From Bryobacteraceae bacterium (GTDB lineage Bacteria; Acidobacteriota; Terriglobia; Bryobacterales; Bryobacteraceae): DNA of 64,000 nt. A model generated the notes under the pieces. It did no database searches. It was not told the DNA's origin and saw nothing but the letters and a program-made list of their open reading frames with translations. Each line of letters starts with the position of its first letter. The stretch's first letter is position 1. The translations under genes and the position numbers were made by a program. The DNA is taken from contig DASYSG010000045.1 in NCBI GenBank assembly GCA_036003585.1, positions 37,094-101,093 on the forward strand. The letters run 5' to 3'. Positions 4,334 through 55,445 of this stretch are shown here, one piece after another.

Positions 4334-4384
4334 GTTGGTCGGGGCGGGGCGATTTGAACGCCCGACCCCCTGCGCCCAAGGCAG
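4334..4384 (-). repeat. Orphan copy of the 3' half of tRNA-Pro (distal att-type direct repeat of the island)
   Basis: gttggtcggggcggggcgatttgaacgcccgaccccctgcgcccaaggcag is identical base for base to 55367-55417. The flanking bases differ on both sides (4333 c vs 55366 t; 4385 a vs 55418 g). It contains the anticodon loop to CCA end but no 5' half. Confidence 0.9.
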
Positions 4385-4883
4385 ATTCCGGCCAACCTGC
4401 GGAATGCCCTATTTTCAAGGCCTTCTGTTTCAAACAGTTGCAGGGACCTTGTTGAAGTCGGTTGAATCCCATGGAACTCTTGGATTTCCGCAGCTACAGA
4501 ATTATCTACAGAGGAACTTCGGAACCAGATCGCCAGCTTGAGTATCCTTGCGGATAATCGGTCAGGAAACGCAGAATGGTCGATGCACGTGGAGATTCGT
4601 CCGGTGCTATTCGCGGAGTCACTTCAGCGCGTATCAAATGGCCGAACTTCGCTTTACTTGTACTTAGCGGGAGTCGCGCGGACAGTTGCGGCGTCTTCCG
4701 TGGGTTAGTCTACATCAAGCAGCCTTGCGGTGAGACCGCAAAACCAAACCCTCTAAGAAGGCCTGATAGGTGAGGTGAGCCCTAGGGGACGATTTCAGAA
4801 CATCGTTCTAATAAGTAAGTGGTCGTTGTCCCGGATTGCTAGAAATTGACGGCTACTCGTCGGAAGATTTGCAGCGCCTACTG

Positions 4884-6026
4884 TTAAGCCACTGCCCACA
4901 CTTTCGTGTCACGACCGGCGGTGACGAGATATTTGCCGTCTGGCGTAAACCGGCCGGAAATAAACGCCAGCGAGTAGCTCTCCGCAATTGGAGAATGGGT
5001 CACCTTGCCGAGCTGGACACCCGTCATAGCATCGTAAACGTTAACCGTCGGCTCAATGCGGCCGTCCGGCAACACAACCCGCTCTCCCACGGCGATCAGC
5101 TTTCCTTCAGGGGAGATCGATACTCCGGCTGCCGCGCTTATTGGAAGTCTCGCTAGGATTGAACCGTCCGCTCCGTCATAGATCCCGACGTAAAATTTGC
5201 GTGGATGGAGAAATGATTGATCGTATACGGCTGCCACGACCCAGCGGCCGTCCGGCGTCATTCCCACCTGCCAGGCGCCGCGATAGTAATCCGGTTCGAC
5301 GGGCCGCGTCCAGATCACGCTCAGGTCCTCCGTGCTGCGGCACACGAGCGCATGGTCTACGTTATAGACAACCCTCTTGCGATCAGCGGAGAAAGCGGGC
5401 GAATAACTATCCGGATCGTTGGGATAGCGCCTCGGGGAGGGTGCGAACGGTGCTCGCAGTGTTTCTTGATAATCAGGAAGTTTCGCACGGAAGAGCGTCA
5501 TTGAATGGTGGGTTTCAGAGCTGTGTTCGTCACCTAAAAGAAACGGCACGGCAAGGGGGAAGTACCCGAGGTGATAGTCGCACAGTCTCGTGTTTAGGTT
5601 CCCCGTCTTTAGATCTATAACTGCCTGTTGATAGCGTCGCCGATACCGCTCGTTTTCATCGATCAGGCTTGTCTGCGCATACAGGACTTCACCATCTGCG
5701 AAGAAGCGGGCGAGGAGCACGTCTTCACGGAGCTGCATGTCATAAATGGGTGTTCCGCTCTCTAACTCGACAACTTGCAGTTTTCCCCGGCGGTTGAATC
5801 CAAGACAGGCGTGGCGGCCGTCCGGCGAGATATCGAACGGACTAGCGTTTCTAAACTGTCTGATCAGCTTGAACTGAAGCTTGCCTCCAGAGCGTTGCTG
5901 ATTGATATTCGGCCCTTGTTGCCCACGCGCACGCTCAGCGCAGAACGGCATCGCCACGACTCCTGTGCAGGCCCTTAGGAATCGACGTCTGGATGCGTAT
6001 CGATCCGCACGGTCGATCATGGACAT
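4884..6026 (-). CDS. Tat-signal beta-propeller protein (WD40/TolB-like 'PDG' repeats); candidate immunity partner of the upstream RHS toxin
   Basis: The long ORF 4884..6116 overlaps the RHS gene. Internal ATGs at 6026 and 6020 give 'MSMIDRADRYASRRRFLRACTGVVAMPF' with a twin-arginine motif SRRRFL. The ATG at 6020 overlaps the RHS stop as ATGA (6017-6020). Repeats include 'ISPDGRH', 'MTPDGRWVV', 'ISPEGKLIAV' and 'FTPDGKYLVTAGRDTKVWAV'. Confidence 0.65.
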   Translation of the reverse strand: MSMIDRADRYASRRRFLRACTGVVAMPFCAERARGQQGPNINQQRSGGKLQFKLIRQFRNASPFDISPDGRHACLGFNRRGKLQVVELESGTPIYDMQLREDVLLARFFADGEVLYAQTSLIDENERYRRRYQQAVIDLKTGNLNTRLCDYHLGYFPLAVPFLLGDEHSSETHHSMTLFRAKLPDYQETLRAPFAPSPRRYPNDPDSYSPAFSADRKRVVYNVDHALVCRSTEDLSVIWTRPVEPDYYRGAWQVGMTPDGRWVVAAVYDQSFLHPRKFYVGIYDGADGSILARLPISAAAGVSISPEGKLIAVGERVVLPDGRIEPTVNVYDAMTGVQLGKVTHSPIAESYSLAFISGRFTPDGKYLVTAGRDTKVWAVA

Positions 6027-9000
6027 CCCCCTCCGATGCCCCGCGCGCTTAGCCCTGCTGCAACGTTGTGGTAGTTGGTATCCCCGCCAGTGAAACCATT
6101 TGCAATCACATTCCAACCGTGCCCGAGCCGGCCGCTTAAAGGTCCGAAGCTGGGATTGTGCGGGTCAATGTCTATGTTGATTACGTATTGACCGGACTGG
6201 CTGTCGAAGCCCCCCGTAATCTGCATGGAGTTGTCGGCAACATTCTGCCGATAATTCATGCCCGAATGGAAGGGATCCCAGCCTGCGTTGCTAAAGCACT
6301 TGGGGTCTCCGACAGTTGTGCAGATGCTCGCGACAAGGTCGTTATAGGCTCCTGCATCGCCCCTCAAGACGAGTTCGGTCATATCTGCACGTCGGCTCGG
6401 AGCCCCTGGATTATGCCCACCAGCCATCTGCATATCGAAGGTGAAGCCTGCGACCTTAATCCCAAGGGCATCTATATCGCCCTTTATTGTCGAGTAAACA
6501 AATCTCTGGGCACCCAACCAGTCTGCCCGATCGCAATTGGGATCGACGGACGGCACTGGATCGCCACCACCGCCACCTCCTCCGGCGCTGTCTGTAGGGG
6601 GATGGTAGCATTCTGGATCGTTTGGGTTGTAGTAACAGAAAGCTGGGTCTTCGCCGGGATAACAATTGACTCCGGACGGTTCGCAGTTCCCAGGGTCCGG
6701 ACCGCCACCATCGTCTGCTCCCGGTGTACCAGGCGCCTGTTGATATCGGCCCCTTGGATCAAAATAGTTAATCGGATCTCCTTCTACGTAGGAATACCGA
6801 TTCCAACTTGTGGGATCTTTTGAACTCGCCGGCACTGAATCGGGCGTTATGAACCGGCCCATCCCCGGCTGATGATACCGATTGTTCGCGTAATCGAGAC
6901 CTGTCTCACTATCCCGGAAGTAGGTAGCGAACTTTTCCTTGCCGTCCTGCGTGGCCGAGGGTCGTTCCTGGCCGTAAGGAAAGTATTTGCCGATCGAGCC
7001 GAGGCGGTCCGGCGTGACGTACCCGGTCGAGTTTTTGACGAGCTTGCCGCCGAAATAGTAATTCGTCCCGGTCTGCGTGGCCACGAGTTGCGGCTGCGTG
7101 TAGTATCCCCCGGGCTGATACTGGCTGAGATTATAGGTCGCCAGCTTCTGTCCGGTGATGCTCCAGAAGGTCACCTCATCGGTGCTGGGCAATGACCAGT
7201 TCTGGTCGTTCACAACGTAGTTCGTGCCCTTCCAAACGCGCTTGTTGCCGGGCCTATACGAATAGGCCACATCAGGAGTCACCGACCACGACGCGCCTTT
7301 GCGGACGAAGCGGTTCTCGACATCGTATGAATAGTAGCTGCCACACAGGTTGCCGTTGGCGTCCGCGCATTCGCCGGTCTGCCGGTTGGTGGCGGGGTCG
7401 TAGGTGACGTGCAGCGCCGGAGCCGTTCCAGAAGTGACGTTCTGATCAGTCAAGTTTCCGAACCCGTCGTAATTATAGCTCTGTCCCCAGCCGGAACCGG
7501 TCGCGCTGGCCAGACGGTTCAGCGAATCGTACATGTACGTAATCTGCTCGCCAGAGACGTTATCGTACTGAGAACTGATCTTGCCGTTGTTCTGCGTCGT
7601 CGGGTAAGCGTATTGAATGTCCAAGCTGCCGGATTGCAGTCTGGTCATCTGGCCGATTGAGTTGTAAGTGCGCGTCTCGTTCGGAGCGCCAGATGCCCCT
7701 GTCATCGTAAGCAATTGCCCCGTTGGTGCGTAAGTCGCATTGGCGATGATGTCGCTCGACGCCGTGAGGTCCGTGAGCTTTTGCAATCGTCCCATGCCAT
7801 CGAATGTATTCCCGAGGTTCGGTCCCGAAACCCAGGAAGATCCGTTCCAGGCGGATGGATACTGAGTCGCTGTCATGCGACCTTCGTTGTCGTAGGTATA
7901 ATTGGCGGTCAACGCCATGCTGATGTTTCCACCCTGACTGTAGTTTTGCGCGGGTTCGGAGACGCCGAGACTCTGGGAGGTCATCCCGCCGGGAGAGTTA
8001 TAGGTAAAGGTCTCAGTGAACGTGTGATCGCAGCTGGGATTCCCAAAAGCATATGCCAGCCCGCCCTTGTACTGCATGCTGGTGAGCCGACCGAGGCCGT
8101 ATTGGCCAGAGTCGTAGTAATAGTTTTCCTGCTGGCAGGTGTCCTCCGTGAATGTGCCGCCGGTGTATGTGCCACGACGTATCTGGGTCACGCGTTTGTA
8201 ACTGTCGTAGCTGTATTGAACCTGCTGACTTTTGGCGTCAGTTTTTGTTGCGAGGGTGTGGTCGGAGTTGTAGGTGTAGCTCACCGTGCCGTTCTCTGGA
8301 TTGGTCGCGCTGAGAAGCTGCGCGCCCGGCGGATTCCCGTAGTTGAACGTGCGGGTTTGCGTTCCGGTGGAACGCGGCATGCTTACCCCCGTGAGGTGGC
8401 CCAATGAATCATAACTGTAGTTGGTGAAGTATTCTGAACCGTTGCCGCCGCCGCTGCCCCAAGCTTCCAACTCAACAAGCCGGCTAAAACCACCGTGAGC
8501 AGCAGTAATATTTACTCGTATCTTTCCGGTTGTCACCGAAGAAAAAGTTAGTTTATTCCATGCCAAGGTATTACTGCTGATTGAACCTCCGGAAACCGTT
8601 TGCCATGACCCTGCACTATCGTACTGTACTTGAAAATCTGAGATACCGTATGAAGTAGCTGTCTGAGATGGCGTTATCGAAGCGCAATTGGGAAAACAAT
8701 CTGCAAGAGTGTACACATCAATTTCATTGATTGTTTTCTGGCCAGCGAAATCAATTTCAACCCACGATGGAGGTCCCGCGGCATCATTCCACCCTCCACT
8801 GTTCCCCCAGTTACTCCCAAGCTCATCACCATCATTAATGGAGGAGACTGGATAACTACTACTATATTGAGATGAGGCACTCGCCACAGCACCATTCAAA
8901 GATAGAGCGTAGTTTGTTGAAGAACCCCCGCCTGAGCTCGACGGGTTAGGCTCATTCACCTGAACCAGCTGGCCAAGCGCGTTCATGGTGTATTTCTTCC

Positions 9001-12000
9001 AATGGCCCGCTGCGTCAGTAACCGTCACGGTATTGCCTTGGTAGAGATAGTTCGTAGTGCCCGTGGTGTCCGTCCCTGCCGTTGTCGATGTGAGTGTGCG
9101 TCCGATGCCGTCATAGGTATAAGTTGTCCAGACTGGGGTCGCTCCAGGGGCATGCGGCAAAGCGGTCTGCTTCACCTTGCCTGTTGGCGAGCAACCGCAG
9201 GAATCGTACTGGGTCTCGGCGACTGACACCGTGCCCGACGCATTCCCGGTTTCCGTTTTTATGGTCCTGCCCAGGCCGTCCATAGAGTTCCTCGTCCAAC
9301 GGCCATTCACTGCGCTTGTCACAGTCGGCGGATTACTGGTATCGCTGTATGTATTGGTGGTGGTCGCCCCAAAAGGTGATGTTGTCGAGCTGGGCCGGGC
9401 GACAACATCGTAGCCAATGGTCATCTGAGCGCCGTTGGGATCTGTTTCATTGGTCAGACCCAGGAATGAGTTGTAGGTCAGACTGGTCGAAAAACCGCCG
9501 ACTGTGATCTGGGACGGAGCCGCGTAATTGGTTGTGCCGGTGCTGGTGAGCGAGGTCGTCACGCCATTGGAAGTTGTGCTGGTGACGCCGCCCGCGACAT
9601 CGTAATGCATCGTCTGGGTCCCGGCAGGAGAGGTAATGGTTGTTGGATTACCGCGCAGAGTGATTCCGCTCATCGAGGTATCCCAATCCAATATTCCCGA
9701 AAGACTAGTCAGTCCAAACTCGTCATACGTAACCGTTGTCGTTGGCGAGGTGGCCAGCCGGTTGAAGATATAACGCGATGCGTAGCCGCTCCCGGTTTGA
9801 TACGTGAAATTGTCAGTTCGAATTGGCGTTGAGAGATTGCCGTAATCAAAAGTATTCACCTGTGTGACATTGCCGTGCGTGTCCACGCTTTGGGTAGTCT
9901 TCTTTTGCGCGGCGTAGGATTGTCCCGGATCTGCCGTCACCAACGCCGTGCCGATGTAATAGTTGCCGACGGAGTCTTGAACCCAGGTGTAATCGTTTCG
10001 AATCTTTGCGACCTGCCCCGGCATCTGGCGACCCTCGTACTGGGTCACCAAACCAGCATTTGCGCCGCTAGTGGCGAATGCCCAGTACTTCTCACCAACG
10101 CCTCCTGGGTCGTCTAGTTGCGTGAACTGATGGATATTGGCGCTCGGCGTGAGCTCATGGGCAAACGGATATTGTGTCGAAGAGACCCCATCCTTGGACA
10201 GACGCCGGTGCACGACTTCCCGGTAGCTCAGGTTGTTCGCATACGTGGTCGTGCTGTAATCGTATGCAAGATAGCCTTTATACGGCAGCACTACTTGCGT
10301 GAGCTCTCCGAAAGCGTTGTAGGTAAACTCCTGATCCGTATTGTTCGCAATAACGACAACGCTCTGTAGCATTGTGACGGTGCCATAGGAAGTACTGTCG
10401 AATGGTGAGGAAAGTGACTGATTCGGTGAATAGTTGAACGTGTAGTTCTCGCCGGTCGGGACATAGACATTCATTCCAGTCAGGTGCGGAGGAGAGTCCG
10501 CGTTGTAATTGAACACGTAGGTGTTTGTACCTGGCGTCCGGACATCTTGAATAGTATTGATGCGGGCGCTGGAATCGGCCCACGTAGCTCCCAGACCGGT
10601 CTTGTAATGGACGATGATCTGGTTGCCGTTTGCATCTTCCATGAGCGTCGGATACATGACGCCCGAATCAGCCTCGGAGATGGCAGATGTGCAGCCGAAG
10701 TACCAGAAGCTTCCATCCCGGAAGTGTAGAGTCGAAGCAGCAGCGTCATAATAGACGTACACGGACTCTTTGGAACTCCACACGTTGCCAGAGTTCTGAT
10801 CGAGCCGATACTCTGCGCCAGTAGAATCGGTGAAAAGATAGTAATTGACAGAATACGCGTCGGCGAACTTCGGAGTAATCGAACCCGCCATCAGTCGCCA
10901 GCCGAAGCCGTAACCTACATCAGCTCCATACTTCCAAGTTCTGTTTGCATCGTAGCGCCAGTCCTGAGAGTTGTAATTGAGATTGAAGCCCACGCTCCAG
11001 CCATTCCGAGCTTTTGCATTGATTAGCGGCAGCGTGTAATTCAGATTCCCGGAGAGAACGTCAATATTCTCGCCAGTAGCACCCCAGTATGCGCCCGTTG
11101 TCCGCACGCCAACGCGGCGGCCTTCGGGGCTAAAGGCTGGAGTAGTCACAACGAAGTCTGTTGCTGCGGCGTTACCGTGAAAGTCCACGGGCTTGAGGGT
11201 GTAGGTGTAGGTGGTGCTTGGAGCAACCGTGCTATCGGAAAAGCTGAGATCGCTGGTGCTGCCAACCAACCACCCGTTCCGGTAAATCTCGTAATCGTAA
11301 ATTCCGGTCCCATTTGCATCATCGGAAGCCGCTGGCCACTGAATGTCGACGTGATTATAAAACGGGGTAGCGGAGATGCTTCCCGAAGGGATGGCACCTG
11401 GTGCGATCGAATCGAGATTCCCAAGATCGATCTCGGAGAGAAGCGGTCCCGAGGCAGGTTGATATGAGTCGAATCCTAGCTCTACCGCCATCCGGCCCGA
11501 GGTGTAAGTCGTGTCCGAGTATTGTAAGAAACGCACATTATCCACGTAGCCTAGGATCACTCCAGTCGAATTGCGCACGAACCGAAAAGTCATAAGGTCG
11601 TGACCCGGTCCGAAGCCGCCCGAGGACACGACAGTGAATTGGCCGCTGTCGATCCTTGACAAGGAGTAACTCGAACCAGTAGAGCCGAACTGAAAGTCGA
11701 TCTTGTAGCCGGAGCCAGCGGATGGCGCTCCGGGCGCGGACAGGTCCGTGCTCGCGCTCAAATAGACCGTTGCACTCCCTGGAAAAGTCGTCGTCGCCAT
11801 CCGGTAGGTCAGCTTCACCTCGCCTGGACTGGCAGTCGTACTGGGATAGGTCATCCGGCCCGATCCGCCGTAACTATTAAAGGCGATTCCGCCAAAACCG
11901 CCGTTCGAGTACACGGCCAGTTGGCCGTTATAGTTCTGTACGATCCAATTGGCCCAGACGGGACTTGCGCCATTCTCCGTGTAGTAGTAGGAGTACGCTC

Positions 12001-12061: not shown

Positions 12062-12480
12062 TGTGGCCTCCCGGAAAGCGAACTTAACTTGAACCCGGCC
12101 TTATATTTTTGGAACTCCTGTTCAATCTGTTCCTTCGTGGCGGTGCCACGCTCAAAAGCTTTAACACCTGCCGCCTGGGAGTTTACGATCGGTTTCAAAT
12201 CTGCCGGCGTCGCGCCGACAAACTCCACCAACGCGAAGTTGCCGTCGTCGCTCACTTGCATGGAGTAGCCGATTACGCCAGACCTATCGCCATTCTTGAG
12301 CTTGGCTGCCTGCTCTGCCGGGGCTGGCGTAAACATCGGGCGCTTGGGATTGTCAGGGGTTCCTGCTCCGATCAGCGGCACGACGGCCCAAACCCGGTGA
12401 TACATCATCTCTGGGGAAACCCGATTCTGAGCGAACAGGGTATTGATCAACAGCAGAAGCAGCGCGACGCAACGGAGCAT
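12058..12480 (-). CDS. Small secreted protein encoded first in the RHS-1 operon (function unknown)
   Basis: The internal ATG at 12480 is preceded by GGAGGAGG (revcomp of 12483-12490) and gives the signal peptide MLRCVALLLLLINTLFAQ. Its stop overlaps the RHS start as ATGA (12058-12061). Confidence 0.6.
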   Translation of the reverse strand: MLRCVALLLLLINTLFAQNRVSPEMMYHRVWAVVPLIGAGTPDNPKRPMFTPAPAEQAAKLKNGDRSGVIGYSMQVSDDGNFALVEFVGATPADLKPIVNSQAAGVKAFERGTATKEQIEQEFQKYKAGFKLSSLSGRPQ

Positions 12481-15781: not shown

Positions 15782-15806
15782 CTTAACAAACTAACTCCAT
15801 AGCAAC

Positions 15807-22636: not shown

Positions 22637-22641
22637 GGAAT

Positions 22642-34625: not shown

Positions 34626-34628
34626 ACG

Positions 34629-39690: not shown

Positions 39691-39783
39691 GAATTATCTC
39701 CTTCTATCGACTCTCTGGTTTTTCCTTACTCCGCATCTCCTTTGGCGAGATAAGAGAATCGTGTGCGGACACCTTCCATCCAA

Positions 39784-45404: not shown

Positions 45405-45425
45405 CGATGTTCTCCTCCCTATACG

Positions 45426-48091: not shown

Positions 48092-48616
48092 TCAACGCCG
48101 CCGAAAGCGCCCGCTTGCAGGCGCACGACCCTCGATCGCCTTGCCAAGGAGGCAGAGCCTTCGGCAACAACGCAGAACATCCCAAGGTTCAGTGTCAGGG
48201 ATTTGATCGGATATTTCTTCCGCTGACTGGTCATTGTTGGACAGTACTTCTAGCACTCGCCGCGGAAGCTCGTCCTCGTCCGCGTCAGCTTCGTCTATCC
48301 ACGACTCACCGTATCGCGCTCCAAACAGAAGAATATCATCACGCCATATGATGAAGTGGCTCTTGCAATCGGTGTCGCGCCACACCGACGGGTATACGCT
48401 CGTTCCCTTGGACGATTCATACATGCGCCATGCGGGACCGGCACGGCGGTCGAGATTCACAGGCACCTCAGCGCCGCACCCGCAAGGGCAACAGAGGATC
48501 AACCAGCGCGGTCCCTGTCTATCCACGATGACTGCATCTCCCGCCCGCTTCAAATGTGCGCTCGCTTTCTCGCGCGAACCCACCCTTGCTTTGATAGAAA
48601 AACGTTTGTTCAACAT
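48092..48616 (-). CDS. Cys-rich 'CPCGC' protein, DUF6527-like, with an acidic C-terminal extension
   Basis: 'RWLILCCPCGCGAEVPVNL...SVYPSVWRDTDCKSHFIIWRDDIL'. The ATG at 48616 overlaps the upstream gene by 7 nt. Confidence 0.6.
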   Translation of the reverse strand: MLNKRFSIKARVGSREKASAHLKRAGDAVIVDRQGPRWLILCCPCGCGAEVPVNLDRRAGPAWRMYESSKGTSVYPSVWRDTDCKSHFIIWRDDILLFGARYGESWIDEADADEDELPRRVLEVLSNNDQSAEEISDQIPDTEPWDVLRCCRRLCLLGKAIEGRAPASGRFRRR

Positions 48617-50343
48617 CGTTCTCCAGCCTTGGACCGGCGCTTCCTTCTACCTGAGGCTGTTGTTGCCTTCGGGGCTGTTTCACGAAAAAGTTTTTGACCA
48701 AAGAGAAATGCGATCGCGCGTGATACGTTCGGAGCTTCGGCTTCTAGGTTCTCATTCGTGTTGCAACCCTTGCGAATAAGACAAAGCGCGAGAGTCAGAG
48801 CGTATTGACCGGGCTCATGTTCTGCCGACCAGCTCAGGGTCCGGATCTGGTTGACAGCGTCGTAGTACCATTCTGTGGAATGTCCTCGCGGGCAGTGTGT
48901 CGTCCCGCCTTTAAGAGCAGATTGCTCATAGAGCGGTTCGATCGACTTAACGAGCTCGACCGGTGTGAATCTGCTGTTTTTGAGATCCTCGATGAAGCCC
49001 TCGACTAAAAGCCCGCCTTCCAAAGAGGCCGGGTCATAAGTTAGCGGAAAGTGCTCTTCTAATTTCTCGAAATCTATGAGTATCGCATCGCCGTGGCGAA
49101 CAAGCACGTTCGAGGCATGCATGTCACCATGCGCTGGCGCAATCAGCGGCGAGGTATTTCCGTGGAGTTCAAACAGTTTCTTAAGCGGCGCAACGTCGCT
49201 ATCTCCTCCAAGAGTGTGGACAATGTTCGCTCGTTTGGGAGGCAACGCGATAAGAGCATTCGAACCCTCCATGTGCCATTTCATCTCTAAATAACCGCTA
49301 AGCGATAATGTCGTGTCGAGACTTTTCTGTTTGCGCCAACCGCCAAGCGTCTTGTCGAACAAATTCGAGATGGCATGGCCGCAGCGCTCCCCCCGCGCGC
49401 ACGTTATCAGCGACTCTGCGCCGCCTACAAAATCGCCCACGAGGATCCCCTGCGTTGATCCCAGATTGCAGCGGTCCCGACGCAGGCGCGGTCCGAGGTG
49501 AAAAGGCACATATTCAAATATGTAGCCGCAATATTTATCGTACTCGTCCACGACCTTCTTTCGTGGTCCAAGTTTTACGAAATATAGATGCGGGTAAGGA
49601 CCCGCTACCCCCCGTGGTACGGCGTCAACGACTGGCGCGACCCGACTGTAAAAGCCAGAATCTAGCCACGCATACGCTTTAAAGACGGGCGCACCAGACA
49701 TCCCGCCGTCGAGCAATGTTAGTTTGAGTTCGGAGCAATTCCAGAAGGCCCGCTTGAGCAACATAACGCGTTCCGAGTGCCCGTCGGACCCAAATATGTC
49801 ACGAAGAAAGTCTTCGTCGACTTTCAATTCGGATTTCTGGAACGGACCGGCGGGCCGATCGCAGACCAAAGCCGCAACATCCGGCCAGGACGACGCCGAT
49901 TCGAAGATGTAGACGCACGGCAACAGAAAGCCATTTTCTCTCTCGCGAAGAAGTTCCGGCGTCGTTCGCCACTCAGTCGGTCGAAGATTTGCAACAGGAA
50001 TCGCGTTTTCTAGTAGCGTGTTGACGACCAGTCTTCGGGGCGTATCGGTGCGATTCTCGTCTGTTGCGAGACGAATATAGACCCGGACGTCGTGGTTGAG
50101 CAGATTGGCGGCAATCGTCTGCAGTTCTCGAGGCAAAGTATTCAACTTGTTCGGGTCCTGCGTCCAAATCACCGCATCCAATCCACTGGCATATTCAGAG
50201 TCGCAAAGCTTCTCCGGTGTGCACCACCCGCATTGAAAGTTTCGCTCTGTAAATCGGTCGAGGTACTTTGCGGGCGGCAAGCTTGGGATGAAAGCAATTT
50301 TAGCTCGTGGCGTACTTTGGGGCGAAAATTCGTGAATCGCCAT
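48610..50343 (-). CDS. 577-aa protein with an unknown alpha/beta N-domain and a C-terminal APH/choline-kinase-like protein-kinase fold
   Basis: 'LLDGGMSGAPVFKAY' is the Gly-rich loop, 'LYFVKLG' holds the Lys, 'HGDMHASNVLVRHGDAILIDFEKL' covers the catalytic loop and metal-binding Asp. The ATG at 50343 lies 1 nt after the E1 stop. Confidence 0.6.
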   Translation of the reverse strand: MAIHEFSPQSTPRAKIAFIPSLPPAKYLDRFTERNFQCGWCTPEKLCDSEYASGLDAVIWTQDPNKLNTLPRELQTIAANLLNHDVRVYIRLATDENRTDTPRRLVVNTLLENAIPVANLRPTEWRTTPELLRERENGFLLPCVYIFESASSWPDVAALVCDRPAGPFQKSELKVDEDFLRDIFGSDGHSERVMLLKRAFWNCSELKLTLLDGGMSGAPVFKAYAWLDSGFYSRVAPVVDAVPRGVAGPYPHLYFVKLGPRKKVVDEYDKYCGYIFEYVPFHLGPRLRRDRCNLGSTQGILVGDFVGGAESLITCARGERCGHAISNLFDKTLGGWRKQKSLDTTLSLSGYLEMKWHMEGSNALIALPPKRANIVHTLGGDSDVAPLKKLFELHGNTSPLIAPAHGDMHASNVLVRHGDAILIDFEKLEEHFPLTYDPASLEGGLLVEGFIEDLKNSRFTPVELVKSIEPLYEQSALKGGTTHCPRGHSTEWYYDAVNQIRTLSWSAEHEPGQYALTLALCLIRKGCNTNENLEAEAPNVSRAIAFLFGQKLFRETAPKATTASGRRKRRSKAGERC

Positions 50344-50344
50344 C

Positions 50345-51679
50345 TCAATCGTCCCGTGTGAAAAGGGGTTGCGCTTCTCCCCGTCCGAGAACTCCCTGCG
50401 GAGAGCAAATATAGCAATTTGGATTTCTAGTGAACGATACGGTCCTAAGCGACGGAGTTCGTGCGTTGTAGAGGATGTTTCGGCCGTCGCTTGGAATGCC
50501 TACCGTCATGGCCAGAAACATCGTCATCGCGATCGAGCTCACGGTGCCATTGATCGAGATGACGGCCGGTGCAGGTTCGTAGGCGCCTAGGATATACGAA
50601 TCCCGTTGGCGTTCTTCGACGTTCATCATATCTCGCCGAACCTCTTCGGAATCGAGCAACTCACAGCAGGTGAAGCAGGGCAGCCCAGGCGCGAGCGCCT
50701 GCACGCGGCCATGTATGCCCGCGATGTGACCATCGCTTGCCGAGATGACTGAACCCACGTCGATGCACGGAATGAGGTATTGATACGCGATCTGTTGGAT
50801 AACCGCACGGCTTCCGTGTGAGTCAGTACAGGAGAAGATGAAATCTGCGCCCCGCAGTTCGCGGGCGAATCGCGTCCTCGTTACATCACCCACGATCCGG
50901 TGCGAGACCGAGTCGGATACGATGCGCGCAATCATGTCCGCGATCACATCTGTCTTAAAGCGGCCGACATCACTAGCGTAGGCCCCGACGACTCGGTTCA
51001 GATTAGTCAATTCGATGCGATCGGGATCGATGAGAATGAACTTGCGTACACCCAAATAGGCGAGCTGTTCAGCAGCTATGGAGCCAGTGCCACCGGCGCC
51101 GACTATAGCCACCGTCAGCGATTCAAGATGCTTCTGTCCCGCGGCACCCAATGCGCGGATCTGGCGGTCGAATTTCAGGGAAGCAGGCGCTTGAGCATTC
51201 TCCGGGTCGAACAGAATCTGCAGCTGCGGACCCACGGAAATGATGCGTAACGGCATCTTTGTGCCCAGACATCGAGCCCGCCACCCGCCTTCGCTGACCA
51301 CTACGGCAACATGCTTTGTACCTGGCGCGCGTACGGATAGGAAGTGTTCCAGATGAACCTCGCCTTGGTCATCTGTCCGGGAGAACCCCGGTGGCACTGA
51401 CCTAGGATGCGAGTGTACGAAAACGACCGAAAGACTTTCGCGCGCCGCCGTCTTGCCGATACGAGCAATATAGTCGGGTTTCAGTTCCGCACTTACTAAG
51501 CTGCGATTCGAATAACTTTCATTGTCCGGATACTCGATACGGGTTACGATGAGGCGCTCTAAGCCATCAGGTAAAACAACGCGCGACGCAAGCAGGATAG
51601 CGCATCGTTCAGTCTCGCGGCCTACGAGTTCGCCGACGATTCGGCTAACGTCACTGTCTTGAATCCTAAGCTCGATCAT
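50345..51679 (-). CDS. JAB::E1 fusion (Prok-JAB-like N-domain plus ThiF-type adenylyltransferase)
   Basis: JAB motifs are 'TERCAILLA' and 'VVFVHSHPRSVPPGFSRTD'. E1 motifs are 'VAIVGAGGTGSIAAEQLAYLGVRKFILIDPDRIELTNLNRV' and 'LPCFTCCE'. The ATG at 51679 overlaps the E2 stop as ATGA (51676-51679). Confidence 0.8.
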   Translation of the reverse strand: MIELRIQDSDVSRIVGELVGRETERCAILLASRVVLPDGLERLIVTRIEYPDNESYSNRSLVSAELKPDYIARIGKTAARESLSVVFVHSHPRSVPPGFSRTDDQGEVHLEHFLSVRAPGTKHVAVVVSEGGWRARCLGTKMPLRIISVGPQLQILFDPENAQAPASLKFDRQIRALGAAGQKHLESLTVAIVGAGGTGSIAAEQLAYLGVRKFILIDPDRIELTNLNRVVGAYASDVGRFKTDVIADMIARIVSDSVSHRIVGDVTRTRFARELRGADFIFSCTDSHGSRAVIQQIAYQYLIPCIDVGSVISASDGHIAGIHGRVQALAPGLPCFTCCELLDSEEVRRDMMNVEERQRDSYILGAYEPAPAVISINGTVSSIAMTMFLAMTVGIPSDGRNILYNARTPSLRTVSFTRNPNCYICSPQGVLGRGEAQPLFTRDD

Positions 51680-52074
51680 CGTGGTGGATTCATTCGCTGA
51701 AGGATCGCCCATAAAAAGCTCTCAAGCCGACTGCGGTTCGGATCCCACACCTGAAGATGCCAAGAAAACCATGTCAGTGGACGTCCCGCAACGAGATCGT
51801 ACGGTAATGGAGTTCCTTCGTTCGCGTTCTGCGGAATAGCACCATTGGAGAGGCGCACTGGTGGAGCGACCCAGAAGCAGTCGGGCTTGGCGGCAGGATA
51901 CCCAGGAGGGGCGATGAAAAAGATGTCAACCTTCCGAGGGCTCCAGCCCTCCGGTAGCTCGACGCCCTTAATCGTGATGAGATACGAGCCGTCCGAGCGG
52001 CGCTGAATGTCGGCGCCCTGATTCTTGAACTCCTTTAGATAACCCTGGAGTTCTATAAATTGTTCGCCAATCAT
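51676..52074 (-). CDS. Prokaryotic E2/UBC-like protein (Prok-E2_E-like)
   Basis: 'VELPEGWSPRKVDIFFIAPPGYPAAKPDCFWVAPPVRL' has a UBC-like PxxYP flap and a candidate catalytic Cys. It overlaps both neighbours as ATGA. Confidence 0.65.
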   Translation of the reverse strand: MIGEQFIELQGYLKEFKNQGADIQRRSDGSYLITIKGVELPEGWSPRKVDIFFIAPPGYPAAKPDCFWVAPPVRLSNGAIPQNANEGTPLPYDLVAGRPLTWFSWHLQVWDPNRSRLESFLWAILQRMNPPR

Positions 52075-52316
52075 CCTAAACCAAACGTGGCTGGTGGGAC
52101 ACCAAAGAAATGTTTCACGCGCTCGGTGATGCTCACCGCTTCGCCGTCGCCAATGCCCTTGTCTGGTCTATCACCCTCTTCTTCAAAGAAGAGCTGATAG
52201 TTTGGAGCGACGTTGGCAATCGCCTTTATCTCGGACCCGGTGAGCGCGGTTTTGGCGGTTTCGTAACGCTTGGCATCCACAAAGAACGGATGAAGTGATT
52301 TGGCTACTTCGGACAT
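52071..52316 (-). CDS. 81-aa ubiquitin-like protein (Multiubiquitin-domain-like) ending in Gly
   Basis: RBS AAGGAG 7 nt upstream of the ATG at 52316. 'FFVDAKRYETAKTALTGSEIKAIANV...GEAVSITERVKHFFGVPPATFGLG' then stop. Confidence 0.65.
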   Translation of the reverse strand: MSEVAKSLHPFFVDAKRYETAKTALTGSEIKAIANVAPNYQLFFEEEGDRPDKGIGDGEAVSITERVKHFFGVPPATFGLG

Positions 52317-52338
52317 GCAGTACTCCTTTTTGCGGTTT

Positions 52339-53202
52339 TCATTCGTCGTGTTTCACGTCTTCAAACTGACTACGATTGGCCCACACGATTGGCTGAGCCT
52401 CCTGAGCTTCGTCAATGCGTAGGTGTCGTACAAAATACGAAACTAAGGCGCGTCGGATCGTTTTAGACAACCTTCCATCCAGCATACCCAAATCATTGAT
52501 AACAGACTCTTTTTGGCTGATCGTTAGATTTGGATTGGGTTCAATGTCAACCACGAAAAAAGTCTGCCATTCAACGTCGTCTTGGAGATCTATGCTACCC
52601 GCGCGGCGTCCGTGAGTTTCTTGGATTCGCGTCAGTACGAAGTCTCGAAATCGAGAAGCGCTGTAACACCATGCGCGCGCATGCCAGCGTGTGCCATCGA
52701 AGGCTAGCGAATGAGGGGCAATCCACTGACGCGTCGGATCGGGACTGCGCATCGATTGGTACGTTATGTCGAGGTCTGTGCCATCACGTATCGCCCATAG
52801 GATTGGCAACAGTACTTCCTTACGCACGCGTCGCACCGGTAAAGTTACGACGTCGCATGGCGGCCGAGCCCCCATAAAGCTGAGCGCCGGCGAAATTGTT
52901 CCTGTAGCCAATCCTGAAAGTTCGTTGAGGTAGGTCTGGGTGTCGGGCACGATGAATAACGGCGTGAATTGTTTTGTCGAGCGATAGACCTTGTCGCGAC
53001 GGTCATACTCCATGTTGTTCCTGGCTAGGGCCATGTATTTTGCGAAGTCCGAGGATGCATGTTGAATTGAGACGTTGAAATATTCCGCCACTTCGCCGCG
53101 ATTGATTTTCCCATCCCACAGCAAGCGAAATTCGATGAATTCCAAGCGCCGATTTTGGCCCCATGGCCGGGGGCGCGGGTTTAGATCCCTATCAGTAAGC
53201 AT
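52339..53202 (-). CDS. HTH plus WYL-domain transcriptional regulator (CapW/BrxR-like)
   Basis: The N-terminal wHTH is 'RLEFIEFRLLWDGKINRGEVAEYFNVSIQHASSDFAKY'. The WYL core is 'LDITYQSMRSPDPTRQWIAPHSLAFDGTRWHARAWCYSASRFRDFVLTRI'. Confidence 0.7.
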   Translation of the reverse strand: MLTDRDLNPRPRPWGQNRRLEFIEFRLLWDGKINRGEVAEYFNVSIQHASSDFAKYMALARNNMEYDRRDKVYRSTKQFTPLFIVPDTQTYLNELSGLATGTISPALSFMGARPPCDVVTLPVRRVRKEVLLPILWAIRDGTDLDITYQSMRSPDPTRQWIAPHSLAFDGTRWHARAWCYSASRFRDFVLTRIQETHGRRAGSIDLQDDVEWQTFFVVDIEPNPNLTISQKESVINDLGMLDGRLSKTIRRALVSYFVRHLRIDEAQEAQPIVWANRSQFEDVKHDE

Positions 53203-53220: not shown

Positions 53221-54117
53221 TCATCTATTACGATTAATCGTATAATACGACGTATCGGCCCGGAAGTCAATAGGGTGCGTTTCGAGTCCCAGTGCACCAG
53301 CTTGTGTCGATTGCAGCCGCAAACGGTAAGAACGCCATTTGCTTCGGGTTTTACATAATTCACATGCCTTCCTCTGCATGATCATTGAGCCACCGTCGAA
53401 CTTCGGATCAGACAGGCTGAGCCGCCGGTAATTCCACGCGCGCGGCCGCTCCGTGGTTAGCGTGTCCACAGAATAGACTGCGGGCGATCCGACCGCCTGC
53501 AATACGTCGGTGATGGCAGGTGTTCCCGGACACGGATAGCGGTCGTCGTTCACGATGTCTGGAAACAGGCACGCGATGCACGGGCCGTCCTTGTCCTGAA
53601 CGAACACGTAGCGGTGATCAGCGTCGCGGCTGACGGCGGTGAAGATGCCCGGAATCTCCTTCGCGCGGAAGTACCAGCTCGCCGTGACACGAGCCGGATT
53701 GTTGTCCACGCCGCAGATCACAACGTCACAGGCGAGATCGATGCCGCGGGCGATCGCGTCCTCAAACTGCAATGGGTAGCCGCGGATATTTGTCGCAACG
53801 ATACATTCCGGCTGAAGATTCCGGGCCAGGGCGATCGCCTTGTTCTCGCCAATATCCTTCACATAAAACCTCTGGCGGTTCAGGTTGGTCGGTTCGACTA
53901 CGTCATTATCGAGTACGGTGATCTGCCCGACGCCTTTGCGCACGAGCGTCGGTGCGATCTGGCACATGATCCCGCCCGCCCCGATGCACAGGACGTGGGC
54001 GCGAGTAAAAGTCTCCTGATCAAACCCGAGGATCTATCGCTGGCGGTCCAGGGCTCCGGTGATCGCCTGGCCGCGCAATTCAATCGAGGTTCTTGAGCCG
54101 GTAAACGCCGGGTGCAT
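53221..54117 (-). pseudogene. Decayed paralog of the ThiF-type E1 gene at 18162..18941, interrupted by an in-frame TAG
   Basis: The start 'MHPAFTGSRTSIELRGQAITGALDRQR' runs into TAG (54034-54036) and continues in the same frame as 'ILGFDQETFTRAHVLCIGAGGIMCQIAPTLV...'. About three quarters of residues match copy 1 by eye. DNA homology ends near 53350 and the normal stop is lost. Confidence 0.7.
53229..53250. promoter_or_regulatory. Array of inverted TACGA half-sites (candidate operator) 27-48 nt upstream of the WYL gene start
   Basis: TACGATTAATCGTA (53229-53242) is a perfect 14-bp palindrome. TCGTA-TAA-TACGA (53238-53250) shares the middle half-site. AT-rich hexamers (TATTAT / TAATAG on the minus strand) overlap it. 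Confidence 0.5.
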
Positions 54118-54400
54118 ATATTTCAACTCCTGCGCCAAGGATTTCAAGTTCACAATTCCGGTCGAGCCGGATGAAGTGGACGTAGCCGTCCCGGCTAAAG
54201 ATCGCCATGAGTGCCATATGTCCAGCCCTTTCGAGCCGACGCTGGAAGTTCTCATCGGTTCCCGAAGGATGCGTCGCGTCAGGCCCCCGGCCGGGATGAC
54301 TGTGGAAGTGCGCCCGCAAAACCTCCGGCCTATGCCAACTTTTCTTCGCGTCGTAAGTAGGCAGCCGATTCAATTGCATCCCGGTGGGCCTGCCACGCAC
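54080..54400 (-). pseudogene. 5'-truncated paralog of the JAB gene at 18904..19563
   Basis: 'LRAHFHSHPGRGPDATHPSGTDENFQRRLERAGHMALMAIFSRDGYVHFIRLDRNCELEILGAGVEIYAPGVYRLKNLD' aligns with the C-terminal ~80 aa of copy 1. The N-terminal ~140 aa are absent. Confidence 0.7.
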
Positions 54401-55168
54401 GTGAGGTTGCGCTGGGACGGCGAAGACGAACTCGCCGCTGGGGCTGAATCAAAATGGAAGTTCAGAGGTAGATGTACCTCTCATCCAGACTTCCCAAACC
54501 CGATATTCACTCTTCCCCGCCGCGGAAGCTTTGAAGCCTTGGTGGAACCTCCCGACGATGTTTCCGCAAACACCGAATTGACGTTTCAAATAGAAGCCAT
54601 TGGTCCGAAGAGCGAACTACTAGCAACATCATTTCACGCCGTCGTCGCAGAGCTTGCGGAACCCGAAGGCCCGCGCAAGATATCAGAGGAGAGCGCAGGA
54701 ATGAAGGGGCGGCGGGCGCCCTATATCCTCCGATTTGTCACCGAGGCGGAGTGGAAGGATACACAGTGCTGGGGAGCGACTGAGTGGACCTCCGAAGACT
54801 CCGGATGCTATCAGGAGCCAACCCAGTCAAATCCGCTCGTCCTCGTCATTAATGAAGATTCCGCACTTCTGAGGTCAGCTAGGGATGCGATGATCGGTCG
54901 TAAGCTAGACGAGTCCACGATTAAGCGCCGCGTCAACAACTACACGGCACATATTGCCTACCACCTCTGGCAGATGTATCAGTATACGCAAAACATGAAA
55001 GCGCTTAACGCGGTGGATGACACTGCGCCCGTTCCCGATGATGATCAGCTCCGAGGAGAAATCAATCGGGTGGCAGCAACCCTCATAAATCTGATGGAGC
55101 AGGAGCTTCGGGGCATCGCCGGGAGGGCGCGTCATGATGTCACTCCGAGCACTCGCGCCGGGACATGA
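54401..55168 (+). CDS. Hypothetical protein, probably the 5'-truncated remnant of a larger gene
   Basis: The 369-aa ORF 54059..55168 is antisense to the JAB/E1 remnants up to ~54400. Only the distal part ('VRLRWDGEDEL...LVINEDSALLRSARDAMIGRKLDESTIKRRVNNYTAHIAYHLWQMYQY') looks protein-like. There is a GTG at 54401 without an RBS. Confidence 0.35.
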   Translation: MRLRWDGEDELAAGAESKWKFRGRCTSHPDFPNPIFTLPRRGSFEALVEPPDDVSANTELTFQIEAIGPKSELLATSFHAVVAELAEPEGPRKISEESAGMKGRRAPYILRFVTEAEWKDTQCWGATEWTSEDSGCYQEPTQSNPLVLVINEDSALLRSARDAMIGRKLDESTIKRRVNNYTAHIAYHLWQMYQYTQNMKALNAVDDTAPVPDDDQLRGEINRVAATLINLMEQELRGIAGRARHDVTPSTRAGT

Positions 55169-55330
55169 GGAATATCCGGTGCGGCCTCACGGACCCACCG
55201 ACTGATCTCCGCCCGGCATGCGAAACTTGCTGATCGATATTCGTGGGACCCGACAGCAGAACCTCTAAGCCCACTGGGCGTCGAGCTTTGCGTAAAATCA
55301 TATCTACAGTTTTATCTACAGTCGAACAAT

Positions 55331-55360
55331 ACGGCCTCCGAAAGGAGGCCGTATCTTTTT
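55331..55360 (+). terminator. Rho-independent terminator-like hairpin
   Basis: acggcctcc-gaaa-ggaggccgt forms a 9-bp stem and is followed by atcttttt. It lies between the 54401..55168 ORF and the tRNA 3' end. Confidence 0.6.
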
Positions 55361-55368
55361 GATTCTGT

Positions 55369-55445
55369 TGGTCGGGGCGGGGCGATTTGAACGCCCGACC
55401 CCCTGCGCCCAAGGCAGGTGCGCTACCAGGCTGCGCTACGCCCCG
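55369..55445 (-). tRNA. tRNA-Pro (anticodon UGG)
   Basis: The reverse complement folds as a 77-nt cloverleaf: CGGGGCG-TA-GCGC-AGCCTGGTA-GCGC-A-CCTGC-CTTGGGC-GCAGG-GGGTC-GGGCG-TTCAAAT-CGCCC-CGCCCCG-A-CCA. The anticodon is TGG. Confidence 0.9.

What the first reader, a model, noticed from the sequence alone, without database searches (positions are those of the whole stretch)
4334..55445. 51-kb island at tRNA-Pro with internal rather than terminal recombinases and a debris-filled proximal end
An exact 51-bp direct repeat (4334-4384 = 55367-55417) reproduces the 3' half of the intact tRNA-Pro(UGG). This is the classic footprint of site-specific integration. Unusually, neither recombinase is near an end. 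The tyrosine integrase lies at 20.6-21.9 kb and the serine recombinase at 30.8-32.4 kb. The tRNA-proximal 2 kb consists of gene fragments. The cargo is a concentration of conflict systems: two RHS toxins, a CBASS-like pair, two Ubl cassettes, an orphan Dam and a CHAP hydrolase. This looks like a composite defence and competition island built by successive insertions and internal rearrangement.
Basis: partly seen in the sequence, partly recalled or inferred. Interest (0 to 1): 0.6.

Follow-up and report, generated by a model that had tools for sequence, protein, structure and literature searches.

The report
tRNA-Pro mobilizable island, central integrase
The 51-kb stretch is a real mobile island inserted in a proline tRNA gene of a soil acidobacterium. 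Its integrase lies mid-island because that is the normal layout of a widespread, apparently undescribed element family, not because this copy was scrambled.

Summary
An exact 51-bp repeat (4334-4384 = 55367-55417) bounds 50,982 bp of lower-GC DNA (about 55% against 60%). Only the right copy belongs to a real tRNA-Pro(UGG).

Three genomes of the same genus join the left flank directly to the tRNA.

The module Dam, coupling-type ATPase, MOB_C relaxase (Replic_Relax), zinc-ribbon protein, Xis, Int, DUF2958, Ubl, E2-like, JAB, E1 recurs in about 45 Acidobacteriota loci. In 31 of 32 loci with at least 9 kb on both sides, no att core lies within the locus.

All seven other genomes I checked place this integrase inside an island at tRNA-Pro(UGG). 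In six, att copies bound it on both sides. Several are tandem arrays.

Arm profiles built only from other genomes hit the window's two ends (E 3.6e-39 and 2.4e-20) and nowhere inside. An exact 18-nt motif sits in both arms.

So this is one integrative mobilizable element placed by the tyrosine integrase. It carries no VirB4-type secretion system.

The tRNA-proximal 2 kb is true debris. It includes a remnant of a second, diverged family member, so "composite" is partly right.

The scan holds no notes on this family from other DNA.

The parts
4216..4333 (.). Outer left flank. It looks like a degenerate right arm of an earlier occupant with inverted arm motifs. This is the sequence that abuts the tRNA in the unoccupied sites.
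   Evidence: It is joined directly to tRNA-Pro in G015, G002 and G018 at 88-90% identity. The same ~115 nt abuts three internal att copies in the G044 array. The right-arm profile hits 4278-4358 at E 3.9e-9.
4334..4384 (-). attL core: the displaced 3' part of tRNA-Pro (positions 29-77 plus 2 nt). It is not a functional tRNA.
   Evidence: Exact 51-bp repeat. No Rfam tRNA match at E<=10.
4385..4515 (+). Left arm of the element: a hairpin, two TTTCAA motifs, GTTGAA motifs, and the 18-nt motif CTACAGAATTATCTACAG at 4494-4511.
   Evidence: A profile built from 11 left arms of other genomes hits 4360-4515 at E 3.6e-39. The alignment is and the exact motif. It is 80.6% identical to the G041 left end.
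4884..12549 (-). Left cargo: RHS-1 operon (beta-propeller, 2014-aa RHS protein, 163-aa ORF).
   Evidence: Pfam RHS_repeat, F5_F8_type_C, PD40/WD40. Not shared with G041, G016 or G007.
14864..16667 (+). Left cargo: CBASS type I (4TM effector plus CD-NTase).
   Evidence: Pfam S_4TM 273 bits and SMODS. PADLOC effector 296 bits and cyclase 322 bits.
17404..20622 (-). Backbone: 262-aa ORF, minimal E1 (ThiF), JAB, E2-like 130 aa, 78-aa Ubl candidate, DUF2958.
   Evidence: Pfam ThiF and Prok-JAB, DUF2958. Conserved next to Int in most family loci.
20619..22204 (-). Tyrosine integrase (20619-22010) and an excisionase-like HTH protein (21863-22204).
   Evidence: PF00589 83 bits. The sequence reads TGMRRGE, HDLRH, GH and LYTH. 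Weak HTH_17 match for Xis. Int relatives of 61-83% identity in the seven mapped genomes all lie in tRNA-Pro islands.
22205..25667 (-). Mobilisation module: zinc-ribbon membrane protein, MOB_C-type relaxase (Replic_Relax), VirD4/TraD-like ATPase, orphan Dam.
   Evidence: Pfam Replic_Relax 67 bits, TrwB_AAD_bind and DUF87, MethyltransfD12. NCBIfam TraD matches are below threshold. PF13814 equals MobC according to PMC5357655.
26223..28709 (-). Middle cargo: CHAP plus Vgb_lyase-type beta-propeller protein, and a 297-aa ORF.
   Evidence: Pfam. Absent at this position in G041.
29103..32438 (.). Backbone block: 189-aa ORF, HTH, 158-aa ORF (all minus) and the large serine recombinase (plus).
   Evidence: Pfam. 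Collinear with G041 at 78% nt identity, with the recombinase 87% aa identical. The block is inverted as a unit in G016, L092 and L095.
33657..37230 (+). Backbone block: 181-aa ORF, 213-aa ORF, TPR protein, Amidase_2.
   Evidence: Pfam. Shared with G016 and G041 at 42-63% aa identity.
37659..46370 (-). Right cargo: RHS-2 operon and its neighbours.
   Evidence: Pfam RHS_repeat 75 bits. RHS proteins recur near the Int module in about 8 family loci.
48092..53202 (-). Right cargo: operon of WYL regulator, Ubl, E2, JAB::E1 fusion, TCAD9 protein, DUF6527.
   Evidence: Pfam WYL, Multi_ubiq, Prok-E2_E, ThiF + Prok-JAB, TCAD9, DUF6527.
53221..54314 (-). Debris: E1' pseudogene with an in-frame stop, plus the 3' third of JAB'. 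This is a remnant of a second, diverged family member.
   Evidence: (D1, D2, D4). It is 74.9% nt identical to the resident copy but 79.8% to L093.
54329..55168 (+). Debris: the C-terminal ~45% of a gene for an uncharacterised ~610-aa protein family. The truncation point adjoins the JAB' fragment.
   Evidence: Full-length relatives of 604-620 aa match only through their residues ~350-607. No Pfam family.
55292..55366 (+). Right arm: the 18-nt motif CTACAGTTTTATCTACAG at 55304-55321, a GC-rich hairpin at about 55330-55353, then TGATTCT.
   Evidence: A profile built from 10 right arms of other genomes hits 55292-55391 at E 2.4e-20. The motif is and the alignment.
55367..55445 (-). attR core (55367-55417) inside the intact tRNA-Pro(UGG) at 55369-55445.

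Best explanation
The stretch 4385-55366 is a single integrated copy of an integrative mobilizable element. It belongs to a family that is widespread in Acidobacteriota and targets the 3' half of tRNA-Pro(UGG).

Integration. The element's tyrosine integrase (20619-22010), helped by the adjacent Xis-like protein, recombined an attP with the chromosomal tRNA. That attP consisted of the right arm, a 51-bp copy of the tRNA 3' part, and the left arm. The crossover fell in or beside the anticodon loop. The result rebuilt an intact tRNA at attR and left the displaced 3' part as attL. This step is inferred from the anatomy.

Layout. The integrase and mobilisation core sits in the middle because this family carries variable cargo on both sides, between the core and each arm. 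That layout is shown by comparison with relatives.

Excision. Excision would give a 51,033-bp circle and restore the flank-tRNA junction seen in three genomes of the same genus. This is inferred and was not observed.

Transfer. Transfer is most likely by mobilisation. The MOB_C-type relaxase and the VirD4/TraD-like ATPase would deliver the DNA to a type IV secretion system supplied by another element, because the island has none. This is inferred.

History of the site. The site has been occupied more than once. A core-deleted remnant of a second, diverged family member survives in the last 2 kb next to the tRNA. A right-arm-like remnant lies just outside attL.
For: - Boundaries: exact 51-bp repeat, unique in the genome. 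Only the right copy is a tRNA.
- Unoccupied sites: the window's two flanks, joined in a script, align straight across the junction to G015, G002 and G018 at 88-90%.
- Composition: about 55% GC against 60%.
- Family: the Int module is conserved in G007 (79%), G016 (69%) and G041 (83%), and in about 45 of 51 loci found with Int, including cultured Paludibaculum fermentans T20B24.
- Link between Int and this att: in G007, G016, G041, G042, G043, G044 and G045 the Int gene lies inside an island at tRNA-Pro(UGG). In six of them ~50-bp att copies bound it on both sides. G007's far end was not found on its contig.
- Central position is the norm: 31 of 32 loci with at least 9 kb on both sides have no att core within the locus.
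- Arms: profiles built without the window hit its two ends at E 3.6e-39 and 2.4e-20, and hit nothing inside the island. An exact 18-nt motif occurs once in each arm against 0.16 matches expected at up to 3 mismatches.
- Arm orientation follows Int orientation. In G044, Int is inverted relative to the tRNA and the arm motifs are inverted too.
- Some att copies in relatives diverge straight after the anticodon-loop bases CCCAAG. That is the pattern expected for tyrosine integrases that cross over in the anticodon loop.
- Mobilisation genes: Replic_Relax 67 bits, TrwB_AAD_bind and DUF87. PF13814 equals MobC, and compact coupling-protein/relaxase/integrase modules are typical of mobilizable elements (PMC5357655).
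- No VirB4 (PF03135) match in the host genome. In G041 and G043 the only VirB4 match lies outside the island, and G042, G044 and G045 have none.
- No phage structural matches.
Against: - No direct evidence of excision or a circular form.
- The coupling-protein assignment is weak: 25 bits for TrwB_AAD_bind, NCBIfam TraD far below its cut-off, and no PDB relative.
- No helper secretion system was detected in this 97%-complete draft genome, so mobilisation may be impossible in this host today.
- G010 carries islands with the same att and the same arms but no integrase of this family inside them. Int-less relatives therefore exist, and the link between att and Int is a correlation.
- The three 'unoccupied' sites lie 3-5 kb from contig ends. 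The flank they share may itself be old element DNA.
Confidence: 0.8

Rival explanations
1. The island is a patchwork built by several independent insertions, and later internal rearrangement moved both recombinases away from the ends. On this view the 51-kb unit is not a coherent element.
For: A diverged E1'/JAB' remnant and a truncated 610-aa gene lie next to the tRNA. GC varies along the island. Tandem arrays occur at this tRNA in relatives. G041 retains an inner att/arm remnant.
Against: The central position of Int is conserved across the family. The island is collinear with G041 through both recombinase blocks. There is exactly one left arm and one right arm, both at the ends, and no internal att or arm copy. 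No secondary repeats beyond chance were found.
Confidence: 0.1
2. The large serine recombinase (30849-32438), not the tyrosine integrase, integrates and excises the island.
For: The gene is intact and has the full large-serine-recombinase architecture. A serine recombinase is present near the Int module in at least 18 family loci. The streptococcal elements with a MobC relaxase use serine integrases.
Against: From general knowledge, large serine recombinases cross over at a 2-bp core and do not leave ~50-bp tRNA duplications, and arm-type repeats with an Xis partner are tyrosine-integrase features. The serine recombinases of G007 and G016 are only 28-32% identical to this one although the att is the same, whereas Int is 69-83% identical. 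The recombinase block is inverted as a unit in some members without any change of att.
Confidence: 0.05
3. The island is a fixed relic. It integrated once and can no longer excise or transfer in this host.
For: No helper VirB4 in the genome. Debris lies at the tRNA-proximal end. Some family copies have stops within Int (G007 and G005). Excision could not be tested.
Against: The non-functional attL copy is still 51/51 identical. Both arms keep an exact 18-nt motif. The Int, Xis, relaxase and ATPase reading frames are intact. Genomes of the same genus differ in occupancy.
Confidence: 0.2
4. The element is self-transmissible by a minimal route that does not use VirB4. The ATPase, the zinc-ribbon membrane protein and the cell-wall hydrolases would act in the manner of actinomycete integrative elements.
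For: Three of the five other host genomes checked, and this one, show no VirB4, yet the family is spread across orders. The ATPase, the zinc-ribbon membrane protein and Amidase_2 are conserved backbone genes.
Against: No FtsK_SpoIIIE domain match and no rolling-circle Rep were found. Acidobacteria are diderm. A single Pfam family was used as the secretion-system marker, and several genomes are incomplete.
Confidence: 0.1

Closest known systems
tRNA-targeting genomic islands and integrative elements with tyrosine integrases that cross over in the anticodon loop (Williams 2002 classification, cited from memory)
   Same: The tRNA is duplicated from the anticodon stem to the 3' end. An intact tRNA is rebuilt at one end. 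There is an Xis partner and arm-type repeats on both sides of the core. Tandem arrays form at the same tRNA.
   Different: The integrase is not next to either att site. It lies 16 kb from attL and 33 kb from attR here, and at least 9 kb away in 31 of 32 family loci. Cargo is carried on both sides of a central core.
Integrative mobilizable elements with a MobC (PF13814) relaxase and a VirD4 coupling protein, i.e. streptococcal IME_Class_8 (Coluzzi et al. 2017, PMC5357655)
   Same: A compact module of coupling-type ATPase, Replic_Relax relaxase and recombinase, with no secretion-system genes.
   Different: Those elements use a serine integrase and occur in Firmicutes. This one uses a tyrosine integrase with Xis, measures 51 kb, lives in Acidobacteriota, and also has a conserved Dam and a Ubl/E2-like/JAB/E1 cassette.
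Actinomycete integrative elements such as pSAM2 (cited from memory: it integrates in a tRNA-Pro gene with an identity segment of about 58 bp)
   Same: The target is a tRNA-Pro 3' part with an identity block of about 50 bp. Int and Xis are combined with a single DNA-translocase-like ATPase and no full secretion system.
   Different: No FtsK_SpoIIIE domain and no RepSA-type initiator were detected. The element is five times larger, its integrase is remote from att, and the host is diderm.
Accretion of elements at one att site, including cis-mobilizable elements (the ICESt1/ICESt3 model, cited from memory)
   Same: Relatives show arrays of 2-4 units separated by att copies. Int-less units carry the same arms (G010). 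This window holds a core-deleted remnant.
   Different: In this window the internal att and arm of the older unit are gone, so the remnant is now part of the single excisable unit.

Membership tests
Site-specific integrative element at a tRNA gene (tyrosine recombinase type) | Direct repeats at both ends that reproduce part of the tRNA, with an intact tRNA at one end | tested here: met
   51/51 identity. The right copy scores 63.4 bits as a tRNA. The left copy is not a tRNA.
Site-specific integrative element at a tRNA gene (tyrosine recombinase type) | An intact tyrosine integrase encoded within the element | tested here: met
   PF00589 83 bits. The R, HxxR, H and Y motifs can be read in the sequence. 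The nearest PDB entries are integrases.
Site-specific integrative element at a tRNA gene (tyrosine recombinase type) | Unoccupied site in relatives | tested here: met
   G015, G002 and G018 join the window's 4222-4333 flank directly to the tRNA. Caveat: these sites lie 3-5 kb from contig ends.
Site-specific integrative element at a tRNA gene (tyrosine recombinase type) | Integrase gene adjacent to attP or to one island end (the usual arrangement) | tested here: not met
   Int lies 16.2 kb from attL and 33.4 kb from attR. The same holds across the family.
Site-specific integrative element at a tRNA gene (tyrosine recombinase type) | Excision to a circle carrying attP, with restoration of attB | not testable with these tools
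Integrative mobilizable element | Own relaxase | tested here: met
   Replic_Relax (PF13814) 67.2 bits against a cut-off of 25.3. This family equals MobC.
Integrative mobilizable element | No mating-pore (type IV secretion) genes in the element | tested here: met
   No secretion-system family appeared among the Pfam matches of the island ORFs scanned. PF03135 has no match in the whole genome. In the relatives checked it matches only outside the islands.
Integrative mobilizable element | Transfer that depends on a helper conjugative element; an oriT | not tested
   Needs mating experiments. No oriT search was made.
Integrative conjugative element (self-transmissible) | VirB4-type ATPase and mating-pore genes | tested here: not met
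Actinomycete-type integrative element | FtsK_SpoIIIE-domain translocase and a rolling-circle Rep | tested here: not met
   The ATPase matches DUF87 and TrwB_AAD_bind only. NCBIfam gives TraD-type matches below threshold.
Prophage or phage satellite | Capsid, terminase, portal or other virion genes | tested here: not met
   No such Pfam matches. PHROGs gave one family of unknown function among ten backbone and cargo ORFs.
CBASS type I (cargo) | A CD-NTase next to a 4TM effector, with no cap genes | tested here: met
   PADLOC cyclase 322 bits over its full length and 4TM effector 296 bits. Pfam SMODS and S_4TM.

The most novel reading that the evidence does not exclude
This family may be a distinct class of integrative element. 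Its integrase would act on att sites more than 10 kb away on both sides. Its arm sets can sit in either orientation relative to the tRNA core. It may spread through diderm Acidobacteriota with only a MobC relaxase, a coupling-type ATPase lacking transmembrane segments and a zinc-ribbon membrane partner, that is, without any VirB4-type secretion system. The conserved Ubl/E2-like/JAB/E1 cassette would then be part of the element's own life cycle rather than cargo.
Probability: 0.12. Interest if true: 0.7.

Novelty: new variant of a known kind. Interest (0 to 1): 0.42.

Why it matters
Acidobacteriota are among the most abundant soil bacteria, and their mobile elements are poorly described. This island turns out to be one member of a phylum-wide element family. 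The family has a defined target (tRNA-Pro UGG), recognisable arms and a conserved core.

The family carries RHS toxins, CBASS and ubiquitin-like systems between lineages, and it stacks into arrays. It also shows that a missing integrase next to the tRNA should not be read as decay.

One member sits in a cultured strain, Paludibaculum fermentans T20B24. Excision, the role of each of the two recombinases, and the transfer route can therefore be tested directly.

Tried and rejected
- Internal att copies. BLAST with both att regions found nothing inside the island beyond chance. Family arm profiles also found no internal arm.
- Secondary att-like repeats around 17.4-25.7 kb and 29.1-33.3 kb. The longest shared words were 9-11 nt, against 9.3-9.4 mean and 12 maximum in shuffles. 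The repeat finder gave only short pairs of chance size, plus a terminator-like hairpin at 29108-29183.
- The left copy as a second tRNA. ARAGORN calls it one, but Rfam does not, at the gathering threshold or at E<=10.
- Prophage or satellite reading. No structural matches.
- PRTRC system membership for the Int-linked E1. It scores 43 bits against a cut-off of 145, so it is not a member.
- Synteny of the tannase flank. The gene is conserved in G023, G005 and G024, but not next to a complete tRNA-Pro there, so it could not provide an empty site.
- Read mining for the circular junction.
- Literature. I found no description of this family in Acidobacteria. A search on DUF2958 was uninformative.
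- PDB search for the ATPase gave nothing.
- The scan's earlier notes hold no look-alike of the integrase outside this window.

Full report
**Observation**

The window holds an exact 51-bp direct repeat, 4334-4384 = 55367-55417. The 51-mer occurs only at these two places in the 5.6-Mb draft genome.

The right copy is the 3' part (positions 29-77 plus 2 nt) of an intact tRNA-Pro(UGG) at 55369-55445 on the minus strand. ARAGORN finds it and Rfam scores it at 63.4 bits against a cut-off of 29.

ARAGORN also calls a tRNA over the left copy (4336-4411). The 5' half of that call is unrelated sequence containing a hairpin. Rfam reports no tRNA there, either at the gathering threshold or at E<=10.

The 50,982 bp between the repeats runs at about 0.52-0.60 GC per kb, mostly near 0.55. 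The genome is at 0.60 and the flanks at 0.59-0.61.

**Gene content**

- RHS-1 at 6017-12061.
- A CBASS type I pair at 14864-16667.
- A minus-strand block at 17404-25667 that reads, from right to left: Dam, a coupling-type ATPase, Replic_Relax, a zinc-ribbon membrane protein, an Xis-like HTH protein, the tyrosine integrase, DUF2958, a 78-aa Ubl candidate, an E2-like protein, JAB, a minimal E1 and a 262-aa ORF.
- A CHAP-propeller protein.
- An HTH protein and a 189-aa ORF beside a large serine recombinase (30849-32438).
- TPR and Amidase_2 proteins.
- RHS-2 at 40002-45404.
- A six-gene operon: WYL, Ubl, E2, JAB::E1, TCAD9, DUF6527.

**The insertion is real**

Relatives in the same genus are about 70-75% identical in flanking genes. 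Three of them (G015, G002, G018) join the ~110-190 nt that lie immediately left of attL directly to an intact tRNA-Pro.

I joined the window's two flanks in a script. The joined sequence aligns straight across the junction at 88-90% identity.

There is a caveat. In all three genomes the site lies 3-5 kb from a contig end.

The shared flank also does not look like plain chromosome. The same ~115 nt abuts three internal att copies in an array in G044, which belongs to a different order. A right-arm profile hits 4278-4358 at E 3.9e-9. I read it as the fixed remnant of an earlier occupant. The comparison still shows that the 51 kb is present or absent as a unit between that sequence and the tRNA.

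**Why the recombinases are internal**

The integrase has close relatives in G007 (79%), G016 (69%) and G041 (83%), each with the whole surrounding module. A scan of one genome per species returned 51 loci. They come from Terriglobia, Bryobacterales, Acidobacteriaceae and Blastocatellia, one Chloroflexota bin, and the cultured Paludibaculum fermentans T20B24.

About 45 of these loci carry the run from Dam to Int. More than half also carry the DUF2958-to-E1 cassette. A tRNA within 10 kb of Int is rare. Of 32 loci with at least 9 kb on each side of Int, 31 contain no att core.

I then located the tRNA and att copies in seven genomes that carry the module. In every one the integrase lies inside an island at tRNA-Pro(UGG). 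In six, ~50-bp att copies bound it on both sides, and the integrase sits 10-84 kb from either boundary. G007's far end was not found on its contig.
- G016: 45.4 kb, plus a 3.6-kb unit.
- G041: 55.6 kb, with an inner att/arm remnant.
- G042: 33.7 kb plus 15.3 kb.
- G043: 123 kb plus 16.6 kb.
- G044: an array of four units, with two integrase copies.
- G045: 25.9 kb plus 18 kb.
- G007: at least 38 kb.

The closest element, G041, is 78-80% identical in nucleotides and collinear with the window over 17426-25747 and 29103-32433. That span includes both recombinases. The central position is therefore the family's normal layout and not a local rearrangement.

Variable cargo sits on both sides, between the core and each arm. 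RHS genes recur as cargo in about eight loci.

**The ends are real element arms**

I aligned the DNA beside every att copy I had fetched.

The left ends share four features:
- a hairpin whose stem co-varies between elements;
- two TTTCAA motifs;
- GTTGAA motifs;
- about 110-130 nt in, a paired motif of the form CAGCTACA-N5-6-ATCTACA.

The right ends share the same paired motif about 45-65 nt from the core. It is followed by a GC-rich hairpin with compensatory changes, and then by TGATTCT.

In the window the motif CTACAGNNTTATCTACAG occurs exactly at 4494-4511 and at 55304-55321, both on the plus strand. Only 0.16 matches are expected even when three mismatches are allowed.

Profiles built only from other genomes' arms hit the window at 4360-4515 (E 3.6e-39) and 55292-55391 (E 2.4e-20). 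They hit nowhere inside the island.

In G044 the integrase is inverted relative to the tRNA, and the arm motifs are inverted too. This ties the arms to the integrase even though they are many kilobases apart.

In several relatives the distal att copies diverge straight after the anticodon-loop bases CCCAAG. That fits a crossover in the anticodon loop, with the stem halves acting as core sites.

From general knowledge, a ~50-bp tRNA duplication with arm repeats and an Xis partner is the signature of a tyrosine integrase. Large serine recombinases cross over at 2 bp. The serine recombinases in G007 and G016 are only 28-32% identical to this one although the att is the same. The recombinase, HTH and 189-aa ORF block is also inverted as a unit in some members. 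I therefore assign integration to the tyrosine integrase and leave the serine recombinase's role open.

**Transfer**

Replic_Relax (PF13814) is the MobC relaxase family. Compact modules of coupling protein, relaxase and recombinase without a mating pore define integrative mobilizable elements (PMC5357655).

The ATPase matches TrwB_AAD_bind and DUF87 only weakly. NCBIfam gives TraD matches below threshold, and PDB gives nothing.

No VirB4 match (PF03135) exists in this 97%-complete genome. In G041 and G043 the only VirB4 match lies outside the island, and G042, G044 and G045 have none. No phage structural genes were found.

Mobilisation by a helper is the best-supported route. It is an inference, and a route independent of VirB4 is not excluded.

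**The debris and the composite question**

The segment 53354-54314 is a 75%-identical copy of 18181-19138. It holds an E1 with an in-frame stop ahead of its nucleotide-binding loop and only the last 76 residues of JAB.

It is no closer to the resident copy (74.9%) than to elements in other genomes (79.8% to L093, 76.8% to G007). It therefore comes from a different family member and is not a local duplication.

Directly adjoining it, at about 54315-54330, begins the C-terminal ~260 residues of a protein family that is normally ~610 aa long. The family has no Pfam assignment. A single deletion from mid-JAB' to mid-gene would remove exactly the integrase and mobilisation core of that older element.

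Together with the right-arm-like remnant outside attL, this supports repeated occupancy of the site. Because no internal att or arm survives, the present 51 kb is bounded by one matched arm pair and should behave as one unit.

**Limits**

G010 has islands with the same att and the same arms but no integrase of this family inside them. The link between att and Int is therefore a strong correlation rather than a proof. I found no description of this family in the literature. The scan's earlier notes contain no look-alike outside this window.

**Verdict**

This is a real tRNA-Pro island of a known general kind. It belongs to an apparently undescribed, phylum-wide family whose central integrase and two-sided cargo are its normal architecture.

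Noticed in passing
own genome, contig C78:27522-30152 (outside the window): A second, degenerate att copy (94%) is followed by a family left arm (113 bits). About 1.2 kb further on lies an RHS fragment 89-92% identical in protein to RHS-1 residues 1325-1772. No tRNA and no integrase of this family lie on that 44.6-kb contig. It may be a remnant of another element, or an orphan RHS tip locus.
   Followed up: partly
29103-32438; G016 (L041-L042), L092, L095: The block of serine recombinase, HTH and 189-aa ORF is inverted as a unit in some family members, while the neighbouring Dam and Amidase_2 blocks keep their orientation. It could be an invertible segment or a cassette inserted independently. 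No flanking inverted repeat was seen in the window.
   Followed up: partly
4385-4411 and the left ends of relatives: A hairpin directly beside the attL core is conserved, with co-varying stems (ATTCCG/CGGAAT, TTTCC/GGAAA, TCTTCG/CGAAGA). It sits where the D arm would be. In this window alone it leads ARAGORN to call a tRNA.
   Followed up: partly
4283-4300: The outer flank contains CAGGTGCGCTAGCCAGGC, which closely resembles the D-arm region of the tRNA (CAGGTGCGCTACCAGGC) but lies on the wrong side of attL. It may be a trace of an older tRNA or att copy.
   Followed up: no
G010:C1:4943-6052 and G024:C5:1486514-1487623: A different tyrosine integrase (about 30% identical) lies immediately on the 5' side of tRNA-Pro(UGG). 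That is outside the islands, which extend from the 3' side.
   Followed up: no
57559-58775 and genome-wide: The right-flank gene pair, DUF6152 plus a 257-aa ORF, is hugely expanded. tblastn finds dozens of DUF6152 copies and more than 100 copies of the partner across most contigs at E<1e-20.
   Followed up: no
26262-27068: Repeats of 117-138 nt period lie inside the CHAP protein gene (D3, D5, D6). They correspond to blades of its Vgb_lyase/NHL-type beta-propeller.
   Followed up: no
G041 (reverse-complemented fetched stretch, positions 20437-20529): The closest related island keeps an inner remnant with 22 nt of att and 70 nt of left arm (76% to window 4363-4455). Its 55.6 kb is therefore two stacked units.
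   Followed up: partly
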